Shown here one piece after another: positions 4,751 through 60,853 of a stretch of DNA of 64,000 bases (position 1 is its first letter; every line of letters starts with the position of its first letter). Source of the DNA: Candidatus Bathyarchaeia archaeon (GTDB lineage: Archaea > Thermoproteota > Bathyarchaeia > Bathyarchaeales > Bathycorpusculaceae); contig JBEKBM010000017.1 in assembly GCA_050015395.1 (NCBI GenBank), forward strand, positions 1 through 64,000. Direction: 5' to 3'. The translations under genes and the position numbers were made by a program. The notes under the pieces were generated by a model. It did no database searches and had not been told where the DNA came from. It saw nothing but the letters and a program-made list of their open reading frames with translations.

Positions 4751-4825
4751 GGGCCCGTGGCTCAGTCAGGCTAGAGCGGCGGACTCTTAATCCGTAGGTC
4801 GCGGGTTCAATTCCCGTCGGGCCCG
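4751..4825 (+). tRNA. tRNA-Lys(CTT)
   Basis: GGGCCCG/CGGGCCC acceptor stem, anticodon loop CTCTTAA, GGTTCAATTCC T-arm. Confidence 0.95.
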
Positions 4826-22179: not shown

Positions 22180-23055
22180 GTGAAATGTGTGCCGTTAATT
22201 TCAAGGTTTGACCCATGGCGTTCTGGGATGTGTACTTGTCCGCCGAAGCTTACTTTTAACCCTTACACTGGATGCGACCACCAATGCATCTACTGCTACG
22301 CTTCCAGCTACATCCCGAGCTTCAGCGATTGCAGACCCAAAAAAGACCAGCTTGCAGCTTTAAAGCGTGAAGCGGCAAAACTCAACGGCGAAACAGTTTC
22401 AATAGCCAACTCATCGGACCCCTACCCGCGTGCCGAAGAGTCCGCTGGCTTGACAAGGCGATGCCTCGAAATTTTAGCGGAGAGCAACTGCAAAATACAA
22501 ATCATAACTAAAAGCAATATTGTAGTTAGAGACGATGACTTGCTAAGCAAGGTTCCCTCAACTGTAGCGTTAACCATAACCACAGACGACGATAACTTAG
22601 CAAAGCTCATCGAGCCGCATGCACCCTTGCCGTCTCAGCGTCTTAGAGCGGCGCAAGATTTAATTAAAAAAGGCATACCCATCTCAGTGCGAATAGACCC
22701 AATCATACCCTCCGTAAACGACCAACCGCAAAAACTCGTCGCCGCTCTAGCAAGCATAGGCGTTAAACATTTAACATGCTCAACGTACAAGGCTAAACCA
22801 GACAATTGGATGCGACTCGCCCAGGCCATGCCTAAAGTAGCGGAGAATCTGAAACCGCTCTATTTTCAGCAGGGCGAAAAAATCGGCGGCAACACACTTT
22901 TGCCAAAAGAATTCAGGTTTAAACTTCTAAAAAGCGTTCGTGACCTAGCTGTTGCGAATAATATGAAGTTTGGTGTTTGCAGGGAAGGCTTACCCGAGTT
23001 GAATACGGCGTCATGTGACGGGTCTTGGCTTATGCCTAAGAGCAAAGGAAAGTGA
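22180..23055 (+). CDS. SPL-like radical SAM protein
   Basis: NPYTGCDHQCIYCYA, SDPY, TKS, RIDPIIP. Confidence 0.85.
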   Translation: MKCVPLISRFDPWRSGMCTCPPKLTFNPYTGCDHQCIYCYASSYIPSFSDCRPKKDQLAALKREAAKLNGETVSIANSSDPYPRAEESAGLTRRCLEILAESNCKIQIITKSNIVVRDDDLLSKVPSTVALTITTDDDNLAKLIEPHAPLPSQRLRAAQDLIKKGIPISVRIDPIIPSVNDQPQKLVAALASIGVKHLTCSTYKAKPDNWMRLAQAMPKVAENLKPLYFQQGEKIGGNTLLPKEFRFKLLKSVRDLAVANNMKFGVCREGLPELNTASCDGSWLMPKSKGK

Positions 23056-23059
23056 TTGG

Positions 23060-24163
23060 ATGCAAAACCGAGTCATCATGCTGGTTGATTTCGACTATTT
23101 CTATGCGCAATGCGAGGAGCTACGCAACCCAACCCTGAAAGACAAGCCTGTTGTCGTAGGCGTTTATTCAGGACGCACAGAGGAAAGCGGAGCAGTAAGC
23201 ACAAGCAACTACATTGCCAGAAAATACAGCGTTAAATCGGGCATGCCCCTCTTCCTTGCTAAGCAGAAACTAGAAGGCACAGACGCAGTTTTTCTGCCAG
23301 TTGACCACGAGTACTACGACCAAATAAGCAACAGGATAATGCAGATTCTCCGCGGCTACGCAAGCAGCCTGGAGCAAGTCAGCGTTGATGAAGCTTATTT
23401 GGATGTTACAGAGCAAGTTCAAGGCAGCTTCGAGAAAGCGAAAGATTACGCTCAAAAAATGAAAAATGAAGTCACCAAAGAGGTCGGAATTTCTTTCTCC
23501 GTGGGAGTTGGTCCCAACAAGCTTGTCGCTAAGATTGCTTGTGACAGTCAAAAGCCGGACGGCTTAACAATTGTAAAATCTGAAGAAGCAAAGAATTTTT
23601 TTGCGCCGTTGCCCGTGGACCGACTCTTAGGTGTCGGAAAGAAAACTTCGGCAAGAATGGATTCCTTAGGCATCAAAACAGTCGGCGACTTAGCAAATTA
23701 TGACGTGCAAAAACTCGTAGACATTTGGGGAAAAATTCTCGGTGTCTATTTCCATAACGCCGCTAACGCAGTTGATAATGAACCTGTTCAAGAGCAAGGG
23801 GAAGCCGAATCCATAAGCAGAATCGGCACATTAAAGCAGGACACAAAGGATTTGGCGTTTATTTTGCAGAAAACAGATGAATTAACAGATGATATCTCCA
23901 AGGAACTAGCGGAGAAGAACTTGAGCTTTAAGCAAGTTGCAATTTACGTGGTCCTGACTGATTTAAGCAGTAAAAGCAGGTCAATAACACTTGAGCAACC
24001 AGCAAAAGACTCAGAAACAATCAAGAAAAACGTAAAAGAACTATTCGGAAAATTCCTAAGCGAAACCCAGCTTGAAGTTCGAAGAGTCGGAGTGAAAGTC
24101 TCAGGCTTCAGCAGGGAAGAACCGCAGCAAAAACAGCTGACAAGCTTTTTCCAAACAAGCTAA
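23060..24163 (+). CDS. dinB: DNA polymerase IV (Y family, Dpo4/DinB)
   Basis: DFDYFYAQ, SVDEAY, NKLVAKIA, KPDG. Confidence 0.95.
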   Translation: MQNRVIMLVDFDYFYAQCEELRNPTLKDKPVVVGVYSGRTEESGAVSTSNYIARKYSVKSGMPLFLAKQKLEGTDAVFLPVDHEYYDQISNRIMQILRGYASSLEQVSVDEAYLDVTEQVQGSFEKAKDYAQKMKNEVTKEVGISFSVGVGPNKLVAKIACDSQKPDGLTIVKSEEAKNFFAPLPVDRLLGVGKKTSARMDSLGIKTVGDLANYDVQKLVDIWGKILGVYFHNAANAVDNEPVQEQGEAESISRIGTLKQDTKDLAFILQKTDELTDDISKELAEKNLSFKQVAIYVVLTDLSSKSRSITLEQPAKDSETIKKNVKELFGKFLSETQLEVRRVGVKVSGFSREEPQQKQLTSFFQTS

Positions 24164-32311: not shown

Positions 32312-33553
32312 CTAAAAGATAAATTGAAGTACAGAGTCAATCCTGCGCAAATCATCCATTATATTTTTTACATCTTTAACGCTTAATGACTCACGCATCT
32401 TGTTCAATCTACGGATTGTTTCGTATAGGCCGTCAAAAACAGTTTTCACGTCTAAATCGTTATTCATGCCATTCTCGAAGACAGAAACGATAGTGCCATT
32501 GACCCCCTCCGTCTCTGTCTCTGTATTGGAATTGTCTGATTTTTGCTCTTGCAGGTCTTTAACCATGCTTTTGAAGGAATCCAGTTTTCGACTAGTTGCA
32601 GCCAACTTTTCAAAGGTAAAGTTTAGTTTTTTCCTGTAGGGTCCATATGTAAGAAAGAACCTTAAATGTTCGCCACTAAAACCTTTCTTTAAAATGTCGC
32701 TTGTGTAATACACGTTGCCAGTGCTTTTAGACATTTTCTTGCCATCAACAAAAAGGTGACCGCCGTGAAGCCAGTAACGCGAGAGCTGTTTACCTGAGAC
32801 GGCTTCTGCAATGGCAATAGTATAATCATGATGCCTGACCAAATTGTCGATTCCGCCGCAAGCAACATCAATTGAGAAGCCAAGATGCTTAGTTACTATT
32901 GCTGCGTCTTGAATGTTCCACGCTGGCCTGCCACTGCCAATCGGCGCCACATAACAAACGGCGTCTTGTTTGCAGCCATCCCAAATAATAAAATCACCCA
33001 TGTTCCATGGTGTGCCATGATAAGTGTCCTTGTGAAAGCGGCGTTTCTTTTTCGGCCACTTGCTCATGTCCAAATGCGCCAGTTTTCCAAAGTCTTTGAA
33101 TTTTAATGGGTCAAAATAAACGTTTTTTGCACCCTTGTACGTGTACCAGTACGCGTAGCCTTTTTCTAACAGTTGAGCAATTAGTTTTGCCGCTTGGTCC
33201 ACAGCTGAGGAAGCCCTTATGGCGTAGTCTGGCGTTTTGATTTTTAGGAGCTTGAAATCTTGGAAGAAGACGTCTTCGTTTTTTCTTGTCAGTTCTTCTA
33301 CGGTGAGATTTTCTTTTTTTGCCTCTGCTATGGCTTTGTCTTCAACATCTGTTAAGGTAATTAGCCGCGTAACATGGTAGCCCAAGTATTCCATGTAGCG
33401 TTGAAGTATGTCTTCAAAGAGGAAAGTGCGGTAGTTTCCAATGTGCGCTTGCTGATATGTCGATGGACCGCAAGTGTACATTTTAACCTGCATGTCTTCT
33501 GCTGGTTTGCATGGCTCGATTTTTCGTGTAAGGGAATTGTATAAATTCAGCAA
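32312..33553 (-). CDS. Cysteinyl-tRNA synthetase paralog with altered amino-acid pocket and no anticodon-binding domain
   Basis: CGP, HIGN and KMSKS retained; WHIEC to WNIQD, HHENE to HHDYT; ends after the DALR-like helical domain. Confidence 0.85.
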   Translation of the reverse strand: MLNLYNSLTRKIEPCKPAEDMQVKMYTCGPSTYQQAHIGNYRTFLFEDILQRYMEYLGYHVTRLITLTDVEDKAIAEAKKENLTVEELTRKNEDVFFQDFKLLKIKTPDYAIRASSAVDQAAKLIAQLLEKGYAYWYTYKGAKNVYFDPLKFKDFGKLAHLDMSKWPKKKRRFHKDTYHGTPWNMGDFIIWDGCKQDAVCYVAPIGSGRPAWNIQDAAIVTKHLGFSIDVACGGIDNLVRHHDYTIAIAEAVSGKQLSRYWLHGGHLFVDGKKMSKSTGNVYYTSDILKKGFSGEHLRFFLTYGPYRKKLNFTFEKLAATSRKLDSFKSMVKDLQEQKSDNSNTETETEGVNGTIVSVFENGMNNDLDVKTVFDGLYETIRRLNKMRESLSVKDVKNIMDDLRRIDSVLQFIF

Positions 33554-33571
33554 TTAGCAAGGCTTCTCCAC

Positions 33572-34048
33572 TTAAACGGTGACTTGCTGCTCTTTTTCCA
33601 GATCCTTCAGCGTGTTTTTTGCTTCTTCAACATGCCGTTGAGTTTGGGTTTGGGAAGAGAAAATGTGCCTGACAACACCTTGCTTATCAATTATGTAGGT
33701 GACTCGTCCTGGAAGTATGCCCATTGTTGAGGGAACACCGTACAGTTTGCGAATCTTGTTATCTTCGTCGCTTAGCAGTATGAAGGGTAAGCCATAATGA
33801 GTTGCAAAAGACTTATGGGACTCCACACTTTGCCCACTTACGCCGAGTACTTCAGCACCCAAATTTGTTAGTTCTTCGTAGCTATCTCTGAAACTGCATG
33901 CTTCCCTTGTGCAGCCGGCTGTTTCATCTTTGGGATAAAAGTATAAGACTACGTTCTTTTTGCCGAAGAATTCTGAAAGAGTCACATTGTCCCCCATTTG
34001 CGAGGGAAGCGTAAAATCTGGCGCTTTATCGCCAACTTTAACAGACAA
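33572..34048 (-). CDS. bcp: Peroxiredoxin (BCP/PrxQ)
   Basis: FYPKDETAGCTREAC. Confidence 0.93.
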   Translation of the reverse strand: MSVKVGDKAPDFTLPSQMGDNVTLSEFFGKKNVVLYFYPKDETAGCTREACSFRDSYEELTNLGAEVLGVSGQSVESHKSFATHYGLPFILLSDEDNKIRKLYGVPSTMGILPGRVTYIIDKQGVVRHIFSSQTQTQRHVEEAKNTLKDLEKEQQVTV

Positions 34049-34148
34049 AAAATCACCAATTAATGAAACATTAGAGGGCTATTATTCTTTTCGCATATCC
34101 GTTAGTAAGCAGTCAAATGTTATAAGAAGCGAAAACTTAGTAGAAGTT

Positions 34149-34754
34149 ATGGAAAAAACATTATCCGCCGCTGGTCATAAATGTCAGGCTTTATACTTCG
34201 CTCCGCCAGGCGTTCCGATTGTTTTTCTGCATGGATTATCTTATACAATAGATATTTGGCATCGCATTGGAGTAACAGAACTATTAATTGAGAAGCGGGT
34301 GCCGTTTTTAGCTTTAGATATGCCTTACGGTTTGAGAAGCCAGTGCCAACCTAAAACCAGAAACCCCGAAGCTAACGTGGTAGTTGCGGCTGAGGCTGTC
34401 AAGAATGTGTTCGGTTCAGCGGTGCCTGTTCTTGTCGGCGCCAGCATAGGTGGAAACATAGCATTAAGGTATGCCACTCGGTTTCCAGTAAAAGGCTTAC
34501 TTTTGATTGCGCCTGCCAGAGCACTGGACAAAGATTTATTGAAGCTTTATGGCAAGTTTAATTTTCCAGTTAAGATAATTTGGGGTTCACAAGACAATTT
34601 CATTTCAGGGGAAGAAATGAGAACCCTATCGGATAAACTGCCTAACGCTAAACTTTTAGTCTATAATGGAGCCTCTCATTCAGCATACAGAGATCAGCCT
34701 GAACTGTTCAAACGAGACCTGCTGGAACTTTACGCTACTGCTGAGCAAACATGA
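34149..34754 (+). CDS. Alpha/beta hydrolase (ABHD14-like)
   Basis: FLHG, GASIGG, WGSQD, SH. Confidence 0.85.
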   Translation: MEKTLSAAGHKCQALYFAPPGVPIVFLHGLSYTIDIWHRIGVTELLIEKRVPFLALDMPYGLRSQCQPKTRNPEANVVVAAEAVKNVFGSAVPVLVGASIGGNIALRYATRFPVKGLLLIAPARALDKDLLKLYGKFNFPVKIIWGSQDNFISGEEMRTLSDKLPNAKLLVYNGASHSAYRDQPELFKRDLLELYATAEQT

Positions 34755-36387: not shown

Positions 36388-36682
36388 GGAACCACCTCCT
36401 GAATCGGCTTAATTGTTTGGGGAATAAGTTAACGAAAAGATGAATCGCCTGAATACCAGTTAAATCCAAATCAACTTCAATACGGTAATGGAACTTTCCT
36501 AAGCGTTTAGTTTTAGTTTTGTAATTTCCAATTGCGCCCGCTTCCTTGAACCTGTGCAGCTGTTGATTCATCAATATAGTTATGGCTGTCGGCGCCAGAG
36601 GTTCAAAAACAAAAATAACTCTTAAAAGTACACGAACAGCAATTCCGATAAGTGATTCAGATACGGACTCTTCCTCAGTCAT
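36380..36682 (-). CDS. Hypothetical protein
   Basis: 100-aa ORF coupled to the 51-aa gene. Confidence 0.65.
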   Translation of the reverse strand: MTEEESVSESLIGIAVRVLLRVIFVFEPLAPTAITILMNQQLHRFKEAGAIGNYKTKTKRLGKFHYRIEVDLDLTGIQAIHLFVNLFPKQLSRFRRWFHD

Positions 36683-36815
36683 TTTTCATCCTTCGAAAAC
36701 ATTAAAATTCCTATTCGCTCCCATTAGAAAGAAGCAAGAACTTAATTATAAACTAACGGGCGCGATTTTTTTAAGGTTGTGTGACTGTCATAACCCAACA
36801 ACAAGGCGACTTATT

Positions 36816-37325
36816 TTGGCGCTTGAAGATTTAAATTGGCAAATTTACTGTTGCAGAAATTGCAGGCTTTGGCAAGGAGCAAAACATGGTGTACCCGGCG
36901 AAGGACCATTAAATGCTAAGGTCATGCTGGTAGGGCAGAACCCGGGAGCTGACGAGGACGAAACTGGCAGGCCTTTTGTTGGGAGAGCAGGAAAATTCCT
37001 AACTAAAGTGCTAGCTGAGAATGGCATAAAACGTGAAGACGTCTTCATAACCAACATTGTCAAGCATATTTCTCCACAGAACAGAAAACCCTATCCCGAC
37101 GAGGTAGCGGCATGCTTACCCTACTTAAACACACAAATAAGCGTTATCAAACCAAAAATAATCGTACTGCTTGGTGCATCGGCAAAAGATACCCCACGGT
37201 TAGAGGGCATAGAATACATGCAAGTTATTCATCCTTCAGCAGCCATGCGTTTCAACAACATGAGAGACAAGTTCAGAGAACAAGTCGCTGAATTAGCAGA
37301 ACGAGTGGCAGCAATTAGCAATTAA
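36816..37325 (+). CDS. udg: Uracil-DNA glycosylase family 4
   Basis: C..C.L, GQNPG, GRPFVGRAG, TNIVK, HPS. Confidence 0.9.
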   Translation: MALEDLNWQIYCCRNCRLWQGAKHGVPGEGPLNAKVMLVGQNPGADEDETGRPFVGRAGKFLTKVLAENGIKREDVFITNIVKHISPQNRKPYPDEVAACLPYLNTQISVIKPKIIVLLGASAKDTPRLEGIEYMQVIHPSAAMRFNNMRDKFREQVAELAERVAAISN

Positions 37326-39262: not shown

Positions 39263-39335
39263 AGCCCGGTGGTGTAGTGGTCAAGCATAGCGGGCTTTGG
39301 ACCCGCCGACGAGAGTTCGAATCTCTCCCGGGCTA
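39263..39335 (+). tRNA. tRNA-Gln(TTG)
   Basis: AGCCCGG/CCGGGCT acceptor stem, loop CTTTGGA, GTTCGAATC T-arm. Confidence 0.95.
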
Positions 39336-39641: not shown

Positions 39642-40469
39642 CTAGTTTGTTTTCACTGCAGATACTTTTACGCTTACCACCGAGTTTGCCGCTTCTTTTA
39701 CTTCTTCGAGCGACATATCTAAACTTTTGACGATTTCTTGGGTTGCGGATTCGCTAATGATGTATTCGAGCGGATACGTCTTTTCTTCAATTATTCTTAC
39801 TTCTTGGAAGCCAGCTTTTCGTATCAGTTCAATATATTTGTCTTTTATTTCTGCTCCTGAGATGCATCCTGCGTAAGCTTCAACGTTTTTGCGTATGGAT
39901 TCAGGCAGCTCCCTCAAGAGAACAATGTCCGAAACCATCAATCGCCCCTTAGGGGATAGAACTCTGAAGGCTTCTTCAAAAACTCGCTTCTTGTTTGGCG
40001 AGAGATTGATTACGCAGTTTGAGATTATGACATCGACCGAGTTATCTGCGGCCGGCAGGTTCTCGATTTCTCCAAGTCTGAACTCGACGTTTGTGTATTT
40101 TCCTTTTCTCGCGTTCGCTCTTGCCTTATCGATCATTTCAGGAGTCATGTCTACTCCTATTACTTTGCCTTTCTTGCCCACTTTGTTGGCGGCCAAGAAA
40201 CAGTCAAATCCTGCCCCTGAACCTATGTCAAGAACCGTCTCGCCTTCTTTTAGCGACGCCATAGCAGTTGGATTGCCACAGCCAAGACCCAGATTTGCCC
40301 CCTCAGGAACGGCAGTCATCTCATCTTCACTGTAGCCTATCATGCTGCTTACTTCCTTGCTGGTTGGACCTGAGCAACAGCTAATAGGCGATGCGCAGCA
40401 AGAGCCGCTGGTTTTGGCGACTTTGGCGTATCGGTTTCTAACGAGTTTTTTAATTTTTTCTTCTTTCAT
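39642..40469 (-). CDS. arsM: Arsenite S-adenosylmethyltransferase
   Basis: N-terminal CC pairs, LGCGNP, SNCVINL, GCISGA. Confidence 0.93.
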   Translation of the reverse strand: MKEEKIKKLVRNRYAKVAKTSGSCCASPISCCSGPTSKEVSSMIGYSEDEMTAVPEGANLGLGCGNPTAMASLKEGETVLDIGSGAGFDCFLAANKVGKKGKVIGVDMTPEMIDKARANARKGKYTNVEFRLGEIENLPAADNSVDVIISNCVINLSPNKKRVFEEAFRVLSPKGRLMVSDIVLLRELPESIRKNVEAYAGCISGAEIKDKYIELIRKAGFQEVRIIEEKTYPLEYIISESATQEIVKSLDMSLEEVKEAANSVVSVKVSAVKTN

Positions 40470-40617
40470 AAAATCAATCCTCCTTTTTTAATCGCATCTT
40501 TAAACTGCGCACGTAGGTTTTCCGCTTTAAGATCAGATGCGCAAGTGGAGCATCCACCGCAATCCTTTTGGGCAGTTTTCAGAACTTTTTATCTGTCTCC
40601 AAATCGTCCATCTCCTT

Positions 40618-40959
40618 CTAGCTGCATGTCATATACTCAAAAACCTCTTTCGTAAGAGCATCCACAAGTTCTGACGTTAAGTCATCGGTAACATCGTAAA
40701 TTCTTTGGTCAACAATCGAGTACATTCGTTTGGTTCCATCCTTTCTGCACCTTACTAATCCGGCGTCTTTGAGGATTTTTAAGTGACGCGAAACTACCGG
40801 TTGAATGAGGTTTAAATGCGGAACAATTTCGCATACACACTTTTCGCCATCGCGCAAAAATGAAAGTATTTCCAGTCTGATTGGATCGGAGAGAGCATGG
40901 AAAACTATTGATTTGAAACGATTCTGATTTTCCTTCTGATTTTCCACTTTTGCGGACAT
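40618..40959 (-). CDS. arsR: ArsR/SmtB metalloregulator
   Basis: ALSDPIRL, EKCVCEI, SRHLKIL. Confidence 0.9.
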   Translation of the reverse strand: MSAKVENQKENQNRFKSIVFHALSDPIRLEILSFLRDGEKCVCEIVPHLNLIQPVVSRHLKILKDAGLVRCRKDGTKRMYSIVDQRIYDVTDDLTSELVDALTKEVFEYMTCS

Positions 40960-41042
40960 GACTTACTTTAGAGTCAATAACAATATTTAAAAGTTGCTAT
41001 GGATGTGAGTTTATATAACAAGCATGTAAGGCGGCAAAAAAG

Positions 41043-41384
41043 ATGTCTGAAGAAACTTGGCACGGAATTCCCCGAAGCAAAATACCCTGGTACCCAACGA
41101 TTGATTATGAAAAATGTGCTAGCTGTGGAAAATGCGGTGAATATTGCAAGCTTGGTACCTACGCATTTGAAGAAAAAGAAGGAAAAAAGATACCTATAGT
41201 CAAAAATCCTTACAATTGTGTTGTTTTATGCAATGGATGCGATGTGATATGCCCCGCTGGCGCGATAACACATCCATCGAAAAAAGAGACAAGAGAGCTA
41301 ATTCGAGAAATGAGAAGATCCCAAACGAGCAGTAAACAGTATGAAAAAGGTCAAGCTCATGAACGAGGGCCATATAAGGATTAA
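41043..41384 (+). CDS. 4Fe-4S ferredoxin family protein
   Basis: WHGIPR..WYPTID, CASCGKC..C, CVVLCNGC..CP. Confidence 0.85.
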   Translation: MSEETWHGIPRSKIPWYPTIDYEKCASCGKCGEYCKLGTYAFEEKEGKKIPIVKNPYNCVVLCNGCDVICPAGAITHPSKKETRELIREMRRSQTSSKQYEKGQAHERGPYKD

Positions 41385-41688
41385 AAGCTGGGAAGAATTC
41401 AAACGCTTAGTCAGCGAAAAGAAACCAGGCTCAATAGTGTACATTCTTGAGCAAAACGGTTTTTCCCCCAATAAGGAACTAACAACGCTAAGAATTATAA
41501 TGCTTCATGACAGGCGCTACTATATCTTTCTTGACTTTCCCAAAGGCGAAAGGCTGAGAGAAACAGGAATTCCCTTGCACAAAGATAAAAAGGGCATTTT
41601 TAATTTGGATGAAGACGAAGTTAAGGTCATTTTGAAGAAGCAGTTTGAGAAAGAGAAGTTAGAAGTTTTTTCTTTCTGGACTGCTTGA
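41359..41688 (+). CDS. Hypothetical protein in the ars operon
   Basis: ORF between ferredoxin and arsC; start uncertain (41341 or 41359). Confidence 0.7.
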   Translation: MNEGHIRIKSWEEFKRLVSEKKPGSIVYILEQNGFSPNKELTTLRIIMLHDRRYYIFLDFPKGERLRETGIPLHKDKKGIFNLDEDEVKVILKKQFEKEKLEVFSFWTA

Positions 41689-41759
41689 AAAGGTGAAACA
41701 ACTATTGCTATAGAGAATATATCGATGATGTTTTTATATTTCAAAAAGAATCTTTTGGG

Positions 41760-42254
41760 ATGAGTCTAATGGCTAAAACCAAAATCTTGTTTTTGTGTAC
41801 TCATAATTCAGCTCGATCTCAGATGGCTGAAGGGTTGCTTAGACACTTTTATGGTAATGAGTATGAGGTTTTTAGTGCTGGAACGAATCCTACGCAGGTG
41901 AATCCATTGGCCATTAAGGTTATGGATGAGATAGGGATAGATATTTCTAGGCAATATTCTAAGAGCCTCGAAAATTTCAAAGAAGCCGATATCGACTTGG
42001 TTGTATCAGTTTGCCACAGCAGTTCAAAGATAAATTGTGCAATTTGCTCTTCACCGATAGTTATGGGCAGACCTGAGTTGATTAGCTCAAGATTGCCTGG
42101 AGCAAAACATTATTTCCAGCACCCTTTTGATGACCCTTCCGAAGTAGAGGGAAGCGAAGAAGAAAAGATTGTGGCCTTCCGTCATACAAGGGATGAAATT
42201 AAAGAGTGGATTATCGAGCGGTTTGCTGATTTGAAAATTGATAATGAACAATAG
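41760..42254 (+). CDS. arsC: Arsenate reductase (LMW-PTP/thioredoxin type)
   Basis: CTHNSARSQMAEG, DDP. Confidence 0.9.
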   Translation: MSLMAKTKILFLCTHNSARSQMAEGLLRHFYGNEYEVFSAGTNPTQVNPLAIKVMDEIGIDISRQYSKSLENFKEADIDLVVSVCHSSSKINCAICSSPIVMGRPELISSRLPGAKHYFQHPFDDPSEVEGSEEEKIVAFRHTRDEIKEWIIERFADLKIDNEQ

Positions 42255-60021: not shown

Positions 60022-60579
60022 TTACATGTAAATTTTTAGCGTTTTGCTTTTTTGCAGTAGGAAGATTGCAAATGCACAGATTATAATGCTTGGCACCATG
60101 TAGATTCCATTGTATACTGCGGAGTAAACGATTGGGCTCATGCCTGGTGGTCTGTACTGGGAAAAATAGATTACGCCTGAAGTAAAGTGAGACATGAAGC
60201 GTGCTGTACCGCCTACGACTACACCGGTGACCTGACCAGCGACTGAAAGTTTTCGGAAGAATCCTGCGAGTCCAAGACATGCAAACGCTAAGGGATAATC
60301 AAGAATGAATTGAGCAGGGTTGACAACGAAAGGCTCAATCGCAAGGTCAACCACGCCAAGCACGGCACCAGCGAATATGCCGATTTTTGGTCCTCTTCTA
60401 AGTGCCAGCCAAAAGATAGGCACCATCCCAAGGTTAATTGTCCCTCCTTGCGGCATGACGAAGAAGGAGTGGCTAACCAGAGCTAACGCTCCTGCCATTG
60501 CGACAAATACAATTATTTCTGCAAGTATCTTGGTTGAGAAAATATTATTATTTTTAGTCGGTTCAGTTTGTTGTTTCAT
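60022..60579 (-). CDS. thiT: ECF thiamine S-component ThiT
   Basis: MPQGG, LDY, RF..H..SG..YF, YS..YN. Confidence 0.92.
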   Translation of the reverse strand: MKQQTEPTKNNNIFSTKILAEIIVFVAMAGALALVSHSFFVMPQGGTINLGMVPIFWLALRRGPKIGIFAGAVLGVVDLAIEPFVVNPAQFILDYPLAFACLGLAGFFRKLSVAGQVTGVVVGGTARFMSHFTSGVIYFSQYRPPGMSPIVYSAVYNGIYMVPSIIICAFAIFLLQKSKTLKIYM

Positions 60580-60582
60580 TTT

Positions 60583-60676
60583 TTTCCCTCCGCCAGTATT
60601 ACCTGGTTCAGGTTCTAAGGGTCGACAGCACTTAGCCGTCCTCTCAGCCGGGTCATTCTCCCAGCTCCCCGAGACC
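60583..60676 (-). ncRNA. TPP riboswitch
   Basis: GGGGAGC..GCTGAGAGG..GACCCTTAGAACCTGAACCAGGTAATACTGGCGGAGGGA directly upstream of thiT. Confidence 0.93.
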
Positions 60677-60853
60677 TTATCTTAAGAAGATATTGCTGCT
60701 ATGTCGCATATTAGTTTTGCTAAAGTGTTGATTTTCCGGGTAGCCGAATTTTTCGCCGCGGACTATTTTTTGCTAATGACATATTTTTGCTTTAAATGAT
60801 TGTTTTGGTAGAAATGTAAAAACTTATTTACTTGTAGAATATTTTAGTAATAT

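What the first reader, a model, noticed from the sequence alone, without database searches (positions are those of the whole stretch)
32312..34048. Rewired CysRS paralog without anticodon domain downstream of a peroxiredoxin
Established: CysRS selects cysteine through Zn bound by C28, C209, H234 and E238 (CGP, WHIEC, HHENE) and reads the anticodon with a C-terminal domain; MshC lacks that domain but keeps the Zn ligands. Seen: HIGN and KMSKS are intact, but WHIEC is WNIQD, DIHGGG is DVACGG, FPHHENE is VRHHDYT, and the 413-aa protein ends before the anticodon domain. It starts 18 bp after bcp on the same strand. Inference: an adenylating ligase for a non-cysteine or oxidised/modified cysteine substrate, possibly tRNA-independent and linked to thiol redox (a new low-molecular-weight thiol or repair route), or a non-canonical aminoacylation pathway.
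Basis: partly seen in the sequence, partly recalled or inferred. Interest (0 to 1): 0.8.

Follow-up and report, generated by a model that had tools for sequence, protein, structure and literature searches.

The report
Short rewired CysRS paralog in Bathyarchaeia
This peat archaeon carries, beside its normal cysteine-tRNA ligase, a conserved shorter copy whose metal site and substrate entrance are rebuilt, so it probably joins cysteine or a close relative to something other than the usual tRNA; its product is unknown.

Summary
Window 32312-33553 (-) encodes a 413-aa CysRS-family protein. HIGN, KMSKS, C28 and H241 are kept; WHIEC is WNIQD and HHENE is HHDYT. The C-terminal alpha/beta anticodon domain is missing, and the gene lies 18 nt after a Bcp/PrxQ gene.

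It is a paralog. The genome also has a full-length cysS, one tRNA-Cys and two cysK/M genes, but no SepRS or SepCysS.

The substitutions are conserved: WN.QD and RHHDY occur in 120 of 120 close clusters and persist in relatives down to 43% identity. The family was found only in Bathyarchaeia (50 of 401 class genomes; 9 of 401 phylum genomes, all Bathyarchaeia). It sits inside a well-supported clade of short CysRS-like proteins. Micrarchaeota members of that clade keep the zinc ligands and coexist with full-length CysRS.

MshC itself reads HHEYS at the same spot, so the lost Glu ligand and the new Tyr are MshC-like. The helical tRNA-contacting domain evolves much faster than in the canonical enzyme. 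Bcp linkage holds in only one family.

Best reading (0.4): a tRNA-independent, MshC-like ligase with an unknown acceptor. Main rival (0.3): a stress or backup tRNA-charging enzyme. The amino-acid substrate is unresolved.

The parts
32312..33553 (-). CDS of the 413-aa short CysRS-family paralog (WNxQD/HHDY family), TTG start
   Evidence: ORF and translation. Pfam PF01406 259.1 bits. TIGR00435 317.3 bits, below the 340 cut-off. AF2 model mean pLDDT 94.4, pTM 0.94. Foldseek best match CysRS 8qhp, TMq 0.89.
33470..33472 (-). Codon of C28 (CGPS motif), the retained first zinc ligand of CysRS
   Evidence: Invariant in 35 paralogs and 89 canonical sequences. Aligns to E. coli C28.
33434..33445 (-). 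HIGN (residues 37-40), the class I HIGH signature
   Evidence: H37 and G39 are invariant in both families.
33002..33058 (-). Family-specific CP-domain segment W166-N184 (WPKKKRRFHKDTYHGTPWN), basic and aromatic, over the active-site entrance
   Evidence: Present in the WNxQD family only, not in the other short forms or in canonical CysRS. R171 is kept in 33 of 35 and G180 in 33 of 35 paralogs. Column identity for block 161-180 is 0.88 within the genus. Its position over the active-site entrance is inferred from CysRS domain knowledge (recalled).
32906..32920 (-). WNIQD (residues 212-216) replacing WHIEC; D216 stands at Ec C209
   Evidence: N213, Q215 and D216 occur in 35 of 35 paralogs, against H, E and C in 89 of 89 canonical sequences. 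WN.QD is found in 120 of 120 close clusters.
32819..32833 (-). HHDYT (residues 241-245) replacing HHENE. H241 (Ec H234) is kept. Y244 replaces Ec N237. T245 stands at the Ec E238 ligand position.
   Evidence: Y244 occurs in 35 of 35 paralogs. The Ec238 position varies (T/N/V/I) within the family. MshC 3c8z/8hfm reads HHEYS in the same alignment.
32723..32737 (-). KMSKS (residues 273-277)
   Evidence: K273, M274 and K276 are invariant in both families.
32312..32614 (-). C-terminal helical region (about residues 314-413). The protein ends after the helical bundle, with no alpha/beta anticodon-binding domain.
   Evidence: AF2 helices 314-336, 354-363, 369-385 and 392-409. The alignment to 1li5 ends at residue 391 of 461. 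There are 136 residues after KMSKS against about 190-200 in canonical sequences. Mean pairwise identity is 0.472 against 0.722 for the same region of the canonical enzyme in the same 17 genomes.
33554..33571 (-). 18-nt spacer between bcp and the paralog, with a GGAG 12 nt before the TTG
   Evidence: Sequence read. Co-transcription is an inference; no RNA data were available.
33572..34048 (-). bcp/PrxQ-type peroxiredoxin, 158 aa, directly upstream on the same strand
   Evidence: Pfam AhpC-TSA 137.8 bits. NCBIfam PRK09437 112.2 bits, below the 140 cut-off. Upstream of the paralog in 18 of 20 loci.

Best explanation
This is a conserved accessory paralog of cysteinyl-tRNA synthetase, found only in Bathyarchaeia among the genomes searched. 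It belongs to a wider archaeal clade of short CysRS-like proteins that coexist with full-length CysRS.

Shown:
- It keeps the apparatus for making an aminoacyl-adenylate: HIGN, KMSKS, G29 and T68, and W212.
- It keeps three possible metal ligands: C28, D216 and H241.
- It has lost the Glu ligand and gained a Tyr (HHDY[T/N]), as MshC has (HHEYS).
- It has a new, strongly conserved basic/aromatic segment in the CP domain.
- It lacks the C-terminal anticodon domain.
- Its helical bundle is under relaxed constraint.

Inferred: it most likely acts without tRNA. It would activate cysteine, or a close thiol or oxidised analogue, with ATP on a three-ligand metal site, then pass the acyl group to a non-tRNA nucleophile. 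This is an MshC-like amide-forming reaction. The role is accessory and probably stress-linked, because the gene is operon-like with a peroxiredoxin in one family and with a Y-family polymerase in two others. The acceptor, and therefore the product, is unknown.
For: Paralog status:
- Canonical cysS lies at G000 C6:65823-67208 (499.4 bits).
- A canonical-level match is present in 40 of 41 relatives.

Catalytic residues are invariant in 35 paralogs and 89 canonical sequences: C28, G29, H37, G39, T68, D69, K73, W212, H241, H242, K273, M274 and K276.

Family-specific fixed changes:
- H213N, E215Q and C216D
- P240R and N244Y
- a CP-domain insert

WN.QD and RHHDY each occur in 120 of 120 close clusters.

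MshC chains 3c8z and 8hfm align as WHVEC and HHEYS. The Tyr at Ec237 and the absence of a Glu at Ec238 are therefore shared with the one known tRNA-independent CysRS relative.

Relative rates in the same 17 genomes (136 pairs):
- paralog core 0.759 and C-terminal helical region 0.472
- canonical core 0.815, helical region 0.722 and ABD 0.811
- single helices of the paralog 0.43-0.54 against 0.78 for its core

No partner tRNA was found:
- Only one GCA/U73 tRNA lies among the 45 Rfam tRNA hits in a 98.9% complete assembly, and there is no suppressor.
- No tRNA gene lies in seven loci holding the paralog or a short relative.

The genome has no SepRS and no SepCysS, and it has two cysK/M genes.

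Operon-like spacing to stress genes:
- 18 nt after bcp
- 15-19 nt before a Y-family polymerase in L051 and L056

The fold is confident: pLDDT 94.4.
Against: - No acceptor pathway was found. MshA, MshB and MshD are not present above cut-off.
- Neighbours differ between families, and no partner is conserved across them.
- The one ABD-less CysRS paralog described in print, CysRS* of Desulfobacterales, was proposed to charge a tRNA. An engineered ABD-less CysRS mimicking it was functional in vivo (PMC5389517, passages).
- The helical bundle is retained.
- The new CP segment is rich in Lys and Arg, which would also suit RNA binding.
- The nearest relatives (P0132 and P0143 groups) keep all four Zn ligands, score above the cysS cut-off (392.6 and 378 bits), and are named cysteine--tRNA ligase by their sources.
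- The fast C-terminal evolution could reflect an accessory role rather than loss of tRNA binding.
- The HHxY[ST] likeness to MshC is convergent, not inherited. The MshC model scores 181.2 bits against a cut-off of 485.1.
- There are no expression or biochemical data.
Confidence: 0.4

Rival explanations
1. A second, tRNA-dependent CysRS. In this reading an anticodon-domain-less enzyme still cysteinylates tRNA-Cys, or a tRNA with another anticodon as CysRS* is proposed to. It would be kept as a stress or backup isoform whose metal site has one thiolate fewer (Cys to Asp) and so resists oxidation or metal shortage.
For: - All adenylation motifs, C28, H241 and W212 are kept.
- Several full-length CysRS representatives read WHIED (P0151, P0228, P0239, P0248, P0264). 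Asp at Ec209 therefore occurs in full-length proteins that cluster with canonical CysRS.
- There is a published ABD-less CysRS* precedent, supported by an engineered ABD-less variant that worked in vivo (PMC5389517).
- Zur-linked CysRS paralogs are known in proteobacteria (PMC2770081).
- The gene is operon-like with a peroxiredoxin or a Y-family polymerase.
- The CP segment is basic.
- Short relatives in Micrarchaeota score above the cysS cut-off.
Against: - H206, E208 and N237 are invariant or nearly so in 89 canonical sequences and are all replaced here. The Ec E238 position is not even conserved within the family.
- The helical tRNA-contacting region evolves much faster than in the canonical enzyme of the same genomes.
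- No second tRNA-Cys or suppressor tRNA was found.
- The protein scores below the cysS cut-off.
- Among paralog-holding genus genomes, at least 7 of 79 carry internal stops or split frames. A further 22 of 101 genus genomes lack the gene.
Confidence: 0.3
2. A ligase with a changed amino-acid specificity that still acts on an RNA. It could charge tRNA-Cys or another tRNA with a non-cysteine residue (serine, phosphoserine, cysteine sulfinate, cysteate, homocysteine). Alternatively it could modify a tRNA base, as the GluRS paralog GluQRS does.
For: - The pocket gains Arg240, Tyr244, Asn213 and Gln215 and loses two acidic residues. That would suit an anionic or more polar side chain; this is an inference.
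- GluQRS/YadB is a known truncated class I paralog that acts on a tRNA base (table in PMC9437257).
Against: - There is no SepCysS to convert a precursor on the tRNA.
- Free cysteine synthesis is encoded.
- There is a single tRNA-Cys.
- C28, H241 and W212, which frame the thiolate site, are invariant.
- No test of specificity is possible with these tools.
Confidence: 0.1
3. A decaying or non-catalytic paralog, either regulatory or structural, or on its way to being lost.
For: - Internal stops or split frames occur in G021, G022, G205, G421, G430, G433 and G438.
- The gene was not found in 22 of 101 genus genomes.
- G017 has bcp directly beside the b5-like gene, with no paralog between them.
- One family member, P0249, has lost CGP, HH and KMSKS.
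Against: - The catalytic core has 0.78 column identity within the genus.
- Motifs are intact in 120 of 120 close clusters.
- Orthologs at 51-57% identity in four other families keep the motifs.
- The new CP segment is itself strongly conserved.
Confidence: 0.1

Closest known systems
MshC (L-cysteine:GlcN-Ins ligase of mycothiol synthesis, Actinomycetota; PDB 3c8z, 8hfm)
   Same: - It is a CysRS-derived protein of about 410 aa without the C-terminal anticodon domain.
- It keeps HIGH and KMSKS.
- It has Tyr at Ec237 and no Glu at Ec238: HHEYS against HHDYT here.
- The fold is similar: TMq 0.82-0.84.
   Different: - This protein is not an MshC family member: TIGR03447 scores 181.2 bits against a cut-off of 485.1.
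- MshC keeps WHVEC, whereas this protein has WNIQD with Asp at Ec209.
- No MshA, MshB or MshD is present in the genome.
- This protein is archaeal.
- It branches inside an archaeal clade of short CysRS-like proteins. MshC itself was not in my trees, because I had no MshC sequence to use.
Canonical CysRS (TIGR00435; E. coli 1li5/1u0b; the genome's own copy on C6)
   Same: - The catalytic Rossmann fold, CP domain, stem-contact fold and helical bundle are shared.
- It is the best sequence and fold match.
- C28, H241, W212, HIGN and KMSKS are kept.
   Different: - This protein is 36% identical to the genome's own CysRS.
- It scores below the family cut-off.
- Two of the four Zn ligands are changed, and H206, E208 and N237 are replaced.
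- It has a new CP segment.
- It has no C-terminal alpha/beta domain.
- It is accessory rather than universal.
CysRS* of Desulfobacterales (Mukai et al. 2016, PMC5389517)
   Same: [quoted passage not shown]
   Different: - CysRS* sits next to selC* tRNA and selB* and is proposed to serve UGA decoding.
- Here no tRNA gene lies in the window near the gene or in seven loci holding the paralog or a short relative.
- No suppressor tRNA was found in the genome.
- Whether CysRS* keeps the Zn ligands I could not see, because the supplements are closed.
Short CysRS-like proteins of Micrarchaeota, Hadarchaeum and others (P0132 and P0143 groups)
   Same: - They share the same clade: 65 tips, all 435 aa or shorter, support 0.987.
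- They share the CGPS and EDKA signatures and the same C-terminal end point.
- They coexist with a full-length CysRS in 2 of 2 genomes tested.
   Different: - They keep WHIEC and HHENE and score above the cysS cut-off.
- They lack the WPKKKRRFHKD...WN segment.
- Their function is also untested.
Zur-regulated CysRS paralogs of proteobacteria (Haas et al. 2009, PMC2770081)
   Same: They are an extra CysRS copy tied to a stress condition, namely zinc shortage (passages).
   Different: Those paralogs keep the zinc-binding residues according to the paper; this one does not. No link to a metal regulator was seen here.

Membership tests
Canonical cysteine--tRNA ligase (TIGR00435) | Score at or above the curated family cut-off | tested here: not met
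   317.3 bits against a cut-off of 340; 317.1 in the genome search.
Canonical cysteine--tRNA ligase (TIGR00435) | HIGH and KMSKS class I signatures | tested here: met
   HIGN at 37-40 and KMSKS at 273-277.
Canonical cysteine--tRNA ligase (TIGR00435) | Four zinc ligands: Ec C28, C209, H234 and E238 (ligand set recalled from Newberry et al. 2002; that paper is not held) | tested here: not met
   C28 and H241 are kept. Ec C209 is D216 in 35 of 35 paralogs. The Ec E238 position is T/N/V/I.
Canonical cysteine--tRNA ligase (TIGR00435) | C-terminal alpha/beta anticodon-binding domain | tested here: not met
   The model match ends at position 401 of 466. The 1li5 alignment ends at 391 of 461. There are 136 residues after KMSKS against about 190-200 in canonical sequences. 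PF23493 is listed for canonical homologs but not for this family.
Canonical cysteine--tRNA ligase (TIGR00435) | Charges tRNA-Cys with cysteine | not testable with these tools
   This needs an aminoacylation assay.
MshC (TIGR03447) | Score at or above the curated family cut-off | tested here: not met
   181.2 bits against a cut-off of 485.1.
MshC (TIGR03447) | CysRS-like core without the anticodon domain, and an HHEY[S]-type motif without the Glu ligand | tested here: met
   HHDYT aligns to HHEYS of 3c8z and 8hfm. The protein is 413 aa; MshC chains are 413-414 aa.
MshC (TIGR03447) | Second Cys ligand (WHVEC) kept | tested here: not met
   WNIQD here against WHVEC in MshC.
MshC (TIGR03447) | Mycothiol pathway partners MshA, MshB and MshD in the genome | tested here: not met
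   The best MshA match is 146.7 bits against a cut-off of 462.5. MshB has no match. The best MshD match is 28.6 bits against a cut-off of 163.1.
CysRS* (ABD-less CysRS paired with selC* tRNA) | Lacks the anticodon-binding domain and has an altered CP region | tested here: met
   The feature list comes from PMC5389517.
CysRS* (ABD-less CysRS paired with selC* tRNA) | Adjacent selC*-type tRNA and selB* gene; a UCA tRNA-Cys in the genome | tested here: not met
   The only tRNAs in the window are Lys at 4751 and Gln at 39263. No tRNA gene lies in seven loci holding the paralog or a short relative. There is one tRNA-Cys GCA and no suppressor among 49 ARAGORN and 45 Rfam hits. Odd cloverleaf structures could have been missed.
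Archaeal short CysRS-like clade (this report; not a curated family) | Groups with the short forms to the exclusion of full-length CysRS; CGPS signature; ends after the helical bundle | tested here: met
   FastTree on 167 sequences gives a clade of 65 tips, all 435 aa or shorter, with support 0.987. The alignment is shown. The tree is unrooted, rests on one method, and includes no MshC sequence.

The most novel reading that the evidence does not exclude
The Bathyarchaeia WNxQD/HHDY proteins, and perhaps the whole archaeal clade of short CysRS-like paralogs (including those kept beside a full-length CysRS in Micrarchaeota genomes of 0.8-1.1 Mb), would be a second, independent invention of a tRNA-free cysteine ligase. 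On this reading they are an archaeal counterpart of MshC. They would make a still unknown low-molecular-weight thiol or cysteinylated cofactor, or would salvage an oxidised cysteine derivative, as part of an oxidative-stress response in anoxic peat archaea.
Probability: 0.25. Interest if true: 0.8.

Novelty: new variant of a known kind. Interest (0 to 1): 0.6.

Why it matters
CysRS is the textbook case of amino-acid selection by a zinc-thiolate bond. The paralogs listed in the review I read are MshC and CysRS* (PMC9437257). A further paper adds Zur-linked CysRS copies in proteobacteria (PMC2770081).

This family shows a third, conserved way of rebuilding that site, with Cys to Asp, loss of the Glu ligand and a new Tyr and Arg. 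It also has a new conserved segment at the substrate entrance. It belongs to a clade of short paralogs that reaches into DPANN archaea.

If the family is tRNA-independent, it points to an unknown thiol or cysteine-conjugate chemistry in Bathyarchaeia, an abundant and uncultured group of peat and sediment archaea. If it still charges tRNA, it would be a natural example of a CysRS with a different metal site and no anticodon domain. That would be useful for understanding CysRS specificity and for engineering orthogonal pairs.

Automatic annotation currently calls these proteins cysteinyl-tRNA synthetase or class I tRNA ligase family protein. The first name is probably wrong.

Tried and rejected
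**SepRS-like or indirect cysteine route.** Rejected. No SepRS is above cut-off, there is no SepCysS, and two cysK/M genes are present.

**Mycothiol pathway.** Rejected. No MshA, MshB or MshD is above cut-off.

**Dedicated tRNA.**
- None was found in the window.
- None was found in seven loci holding the paralog or a short relative.
- None stood out among the genome's tRNAs.
- Two Rfam tRNA hits (C4:23170-23275 and C13:22560-22686) were left unassigned by ARAGORN and I did not type them.

**Conserved gene partner across families.** None was found. The neighbours are:
- bcp in f1
- a Y-family polymerase in f7 and f19
- carA and carB in L055 and an Ftr-like gene in L054; both names are my reading of the translations and were not scanned against any family library
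- an ABC transporter, or a radical SAM gene with a hexapeptide transferase, in the two Micrarchaeia loci

**Promoter and terminator scan.** Nothing rose above the shuffles, and it is a bacterial model in any case.

**Expression.** No RNA holder was listed. The 24 runs are all DNA, from peat or wetland metagenomes.

**Literature.** I found no description of this family or of the short archaeal clade. I read passages in:
- PMC5424206 and PMC2922099
- PMC9437257 and PMC8762117
- PMC5389517 and PMC2770081
- PMC7373986 and PMC5370406
- PMC11580382 and PMC9976931

Two structure papers are not held: Newberry 2002 (PMC126036) and Tremblay 2008 (PMC2628295). The roles of Ec H206, E208 and N237 and the MshC ligand list therefore rest on recall or stay unknown. 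Supplements are closed. Figure S14 of PMC5389517, the CysRS* alignment, might show whether CysRS* keeps the Zn ligands.

**Limits.**
- MshC could not be placed in the trees, because I had no MshC sequence as a record.
Full report
**1. The observation.**
Window 32312..33553 on the minus strand is an open frame of 413 codons. It starts at a TTG that directly follows an in-frame TAA. The first residues already align with the conserved N-terminus of CysRS, so that start is the right one.

Eighteen bases upstream on the same strand ends a 158-aa gene (33572..34048). It matches the AhpC-TSA family at 137.8 bits and, below cut-off, the thiol peroxidase Bcp model. The spacer contains a GGAG.

The 413-aa protein matches the CysRS catalytic-domain family PF01406 at 259.1 bits. 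Its score on the NCBIfam cysS model is 317.3 bits, below the 340-bit cut-off, and it covers only model positions 1-401 of 466.

- CGP, HIGN and KMSKS are kept.
- WHIEC is WNIQD.
- DIHGGG is DVACGG.
- FPHHENE is VRHHDYT.

One nuance applies. The genome's own canonical enzyme already reads DIHCGG, so only the His-to-Ala change in that motif is special to this protein.

**2. It is a paralog in a genome with an ordinary cysteine system.**
The window is contig C17 of a 2.59-Mb assembly that is 98.9% complete. That assembly also has a full-length cysS on C6 (499.4 bits, 476-codon frame), which is 36% identical to the window protein.
- There is no SepRS (best 50.3 bits against a cut-off of 380.65).
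- There is no SepCysS (39.4 against 365.25).
- Two cysK/M genes score above cut-off.
- ARAGORN with introns finds 49 tRNAs and the Rfam tRNA model finds 45. Among them is one tRNA-Cys with a GCA anticodon and a U discriminator, and there is no suppressor.
- ARAGORN left two of the Rfam hits unassigned, and I did not type them.

Source names on close homologs place the organism in Bathyarchaeia. Near-identical DNA occurs in 24 listed peat and wetland metagenome runs, none on record as RNA.

**3. The substitutions are conserved, and the family is confined to Bathyarchaeia among the genomes searched.**
The 120 best homolog clusters are 73-100% identical to the window protein and mostly 411 aa long. 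WN.QD and RHHDY are present in 120 of 120, and CGPS in 119 of 120.

In a library clustered at 50% identity, the more distant full-length members of at least 380 aa are P0123-P0126 and P0129, at 43-56% identity. They keep CGPS, H[IL]GN, WN[IV]QD and RHHDY[NT] and have 123-140 residues after KMSKS. Canonical sequences have about 190-200.

Distribution in the genome samples:

| Sample | Genomes with the family |
|---|---|
| Genus | 79 of 101 |
| Class | 50 of 401 (families f1 35/103, f7 10/18, f6 2/11, f19 1/2, f26 1/16; 9 of 131 genera) |
| Phylum | 9 of 401, all in families f1, f7 and f19, which the class sample places in Bathyarchaeia |

Every relative but one keeps a canonical-level CysRS match: 40 of 41. 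The exception is 56% complete.

The gene is dispensable:
- At least seven genus copies carry internal stops or split frames (G021, G022, G205, G421, G430, G433, G438).
- G017 has bcp directly beside the downstream b5-like gene, with nothing between them.

**4. What changed and what did not.**
I compared 35 family members with 89 canonical sequences.

Invariant in both sets:
- C28, G29, H37, G39, T68, D69 and K73
- W212, H241 and H242
- K273, M274 and K276

These cover the ATP and amino-acid backbone contacts and two of the four zinc ligands. That functional reading rests on recalled knowledge of the E. coli structure.

Fixed differences between the sets:
- T31S, T115S and Y155F
- H213N (Ec H206), E215Q (Ec E208) and C216D (Ec C209)
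- P240R (Ec P233) and N244Y (Ec N237)
- an inserted segment in the CP domain, W166-N184 (WPKKKRRFHKDTYHGTPWN)

That CP segment is found only in this family. It is among the best conserved parts of the protein, with column identity 0.88 for residues 161-180. The position of the fourth ligand, Ec E238, is T, N, V or I within the family. It is therefore not a ligand here.

Asp at Ec209 also occurs in several full-length CysRS representatives that read WHIED. That change alone need not abolish metal binding.

**5. The MshC comparison changes the picture.**
I aligned the motif region to solved structures. M. smegmatis MshC (3c8z, 8hfm) reads GRPGWHVEC and FPHHEYS. MshC therefore keeps three, not four, of the CysRS ligand positions. 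It has Tyr at Ec237 and Ser at Ec238, the same pattern as HHDY[T/N] here.

The likeness is convergent:
- The MshC model scores 181.2 bits against a cut-off of 485.1.
- No MshA, MshB or MshD is encoded.
- The protein branches among archaeal short forms (section 6).

**6. A wider clade of short CysRS-like paralogs.**
I built a FastTree of 167 sequences. The family, 37 tips including two aberrant members, has support 0.993. It sits inside a clade of 65 tips, all 435 aa or shorter, with support 0.987. No full-length CysRS falls inside that clade.

The other members are:
- P0176, the sister to the family at support 0.949, which reads WNVQC and HHENT and looks like a halfway form
- P0211 and P0222
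- the P0143 group
- the P0132 group

The last two groups keep WHIEC and HHENE. Their sources name them cysteine--tRNA ligase in Micrarchaeota, Hadarchaeum and others.

Only two species genomes hold close P0132 relatives. In both, the short form (392.6 and 378 bits) lies beside a full-length cysS (568.4 and 533.6 bits) in genomes of about 1.1 and 0.8 Mb. The two full-length proteins are 50% identical and cluster together, which argues against stray contamination.

The short clade is therefore a paralog lineage in at least two archaeal phyla. The Bathyarchaeia family is its most derived branch. The tree is unrooted, built with one method, and contains no MshC sequence.

**7. Evidence bearing on tRNA dependence.**
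I compared the paralog and the canonical enzyme in the same 17 genomes (136 pairs).

| Region | Paralog mean identity | Canonical mean identity |
|---|---|---|
| Catalytic core | 0.759 | 0.815 |
| Helical region after KMSKS | 0.472 | 0.722 |
| Anticodon domain | absent | 0.811 |

When I left out the low-confidence linker, single helices of the paralog's bundle stand at 0.43-0.54, against 0.78 for its core (G040 dropped, 16 genomes). In CysRS that region contacts the tRNA body (recalled), so relaxed constraint fits loss of tRNA binding.

The AF2 model is confident: pLDDT 94.4 and pTM 0.94. It dips only in the CP segment (77-89) and the linker (65). It superposes on CysRS (8qhp, TMq 0.89) slightly better than on MshC (0.82-0.84).

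Points against tRNA independence:
- The ABD-less CysRS* of Desulfobacterales was proposed to charge a selC*-type tRNA. The natural enzyme showed no activity in E. coli, but an engineered ABD-less variant carrying its CP1 motif worked in vivo (PMC5389517, passages).
- The bundle is retained.
- The new CP segment is basic.

**8. Gene context.**
Within family f1 the order is bcp, then the paralog, then a convergent cytochrome b5-like gene, and this order is stable. bcp is upstream in 18 of 20 loci.

In the genus sample, 72 of the 79 paralog holders also hold the bcp ortholog. Only G017 holds bcp without the paralog. This assumes the two draws are the same 101 genomes, as the handles suggest. The genomes are kin and the genes are neighbours, so this shows a shared block and not an independent association.

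Outside f1 the linkage is gone:
- In f7 (three loci) and f19 (one locus) the paralog is followed after 15-19 nt by a Y-family DNA polymerase.
- In L055 it is followed by what read as carA and carB, and in L054 by an Ftr-like gene (my reading of the translations).
- In L053 no same-strand neighbour is adjacent.
- The two Micrarchaeia loci share no neighbour.

In the window itself a radical SAM gene and a Y-family polymerase lie 9 kb away, at 22180-24163. Two different stress-defence partners are suggestive of a stress regulon, but nothing more can be said.

**9. Verdict.**
The finding is real. It is a conserved, apparently undescribed variant of the CysRS family. My six literature searches found no description of it.

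My confidence in each reading:

| Reading | Confidence |
|---|---|
| tRNA-independent, MshC-like ligase that activates cysteine or a close analogue on a three-ligand metal site and passes it to an unknown acceptor | 0.4 |
| Stress or backup enzyme that still charges a tRNA | 0.3 |
| Changed amino-acid specificity, still acting on RNA | 0.1 |
| Decay or a non-catalytic role | 0.1 |

The amino-acid substrate cannot be settled with these tools.

Noticed in passing
L063/L145 (G418) and L064/L146 (G419); P0132 and P0143 groups: Micrarchaeota genomes of about 0.8-1.1 Mb carry a short (about 405-415 aa) CysRS-like gene with an intact WHIEC/HHENE site beside a full-length cysS. This held in 2 of 2 genomes tested. 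The short forms are annotated as cysteine--tRNA ligase, but they form one clade with the Bathyarchaeia family.
   Followed up: partly
P0242, P0151, P0228, P0239, P0248, P0264 (representatives): A separate clade of mostly full-length CysRS reads WHIED, with Asp at Ec C209. Its one short member, P0242 (407 aa), reads WHIQD and HHSAQ. This looks like a second, independent case of a short form combined with Gln, Asp and loss of the Glu ligand.
   Followed up: no
window 60568-60681 (-): A TPP riboswitch match lies above the Rfam gathering score (60.7 against 54.3 bits) in this archaeal contig.
   Followed up: no
window 22180-24163 (+): A radical SAM gene (291 aa) overlaps the start of a Y-family DNA polymerase gene (IMS family, 382 aa). 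The same polymerase family lies directly after the paralog in families f7 and f19. A uracil-DNA glycosylase family gene lies at 36582-37325.
   Followed up: partly
window 39642-42254: A cluster holds a SAM methyltransferase (39642-40469, -), an ArsR-type regulator (40618-40959, -), a small 4Fe-4S-like protein (41043-41384, +) and a low-molecular-weight phosphatase or arsenate-reductase-type protein (41760-42254, +). It may be a metalloid resistance cluster.
   Followed up: no
G021, G022, G205, G421, G430, G433, G438; L157 (G017): The paralog has been disrupted repeatedly by stops or frame breaks within one genus. In G017 it is cleanly missing between bcp and the b5-like gene. In L022 (G015) the bcp gene itself gives two overlapping partial matches, and the genus search shows a TAA inside it.
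   Followed up: partly
P0249 (430 aa, representative library): One member of the family clade has lost CGP (YTSGPGLA), HH (GRHEAS) and KMSKS (RMTAR). It looks like a catalytically dead offshoot.
   Followed up: no
G040 canonical CysRS (L171) against G000: The canonical CysRS of G040 is only 46% identical (core) to that of G000, while the paralogs of the same two genomes are 57% identical. The canonical gene of that family may be of a different origin.
   Followed up: no
window 33960-34754 (+): The longest frame of the alpha/beta hydrolase gene overlaps the bcp start. The ortholog in L157 starts at a Met matching about window 34149. The true start is therefore probably later, which leaves a divergent intergenic region of about 100 bp before bcp.
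   Followed up: partly
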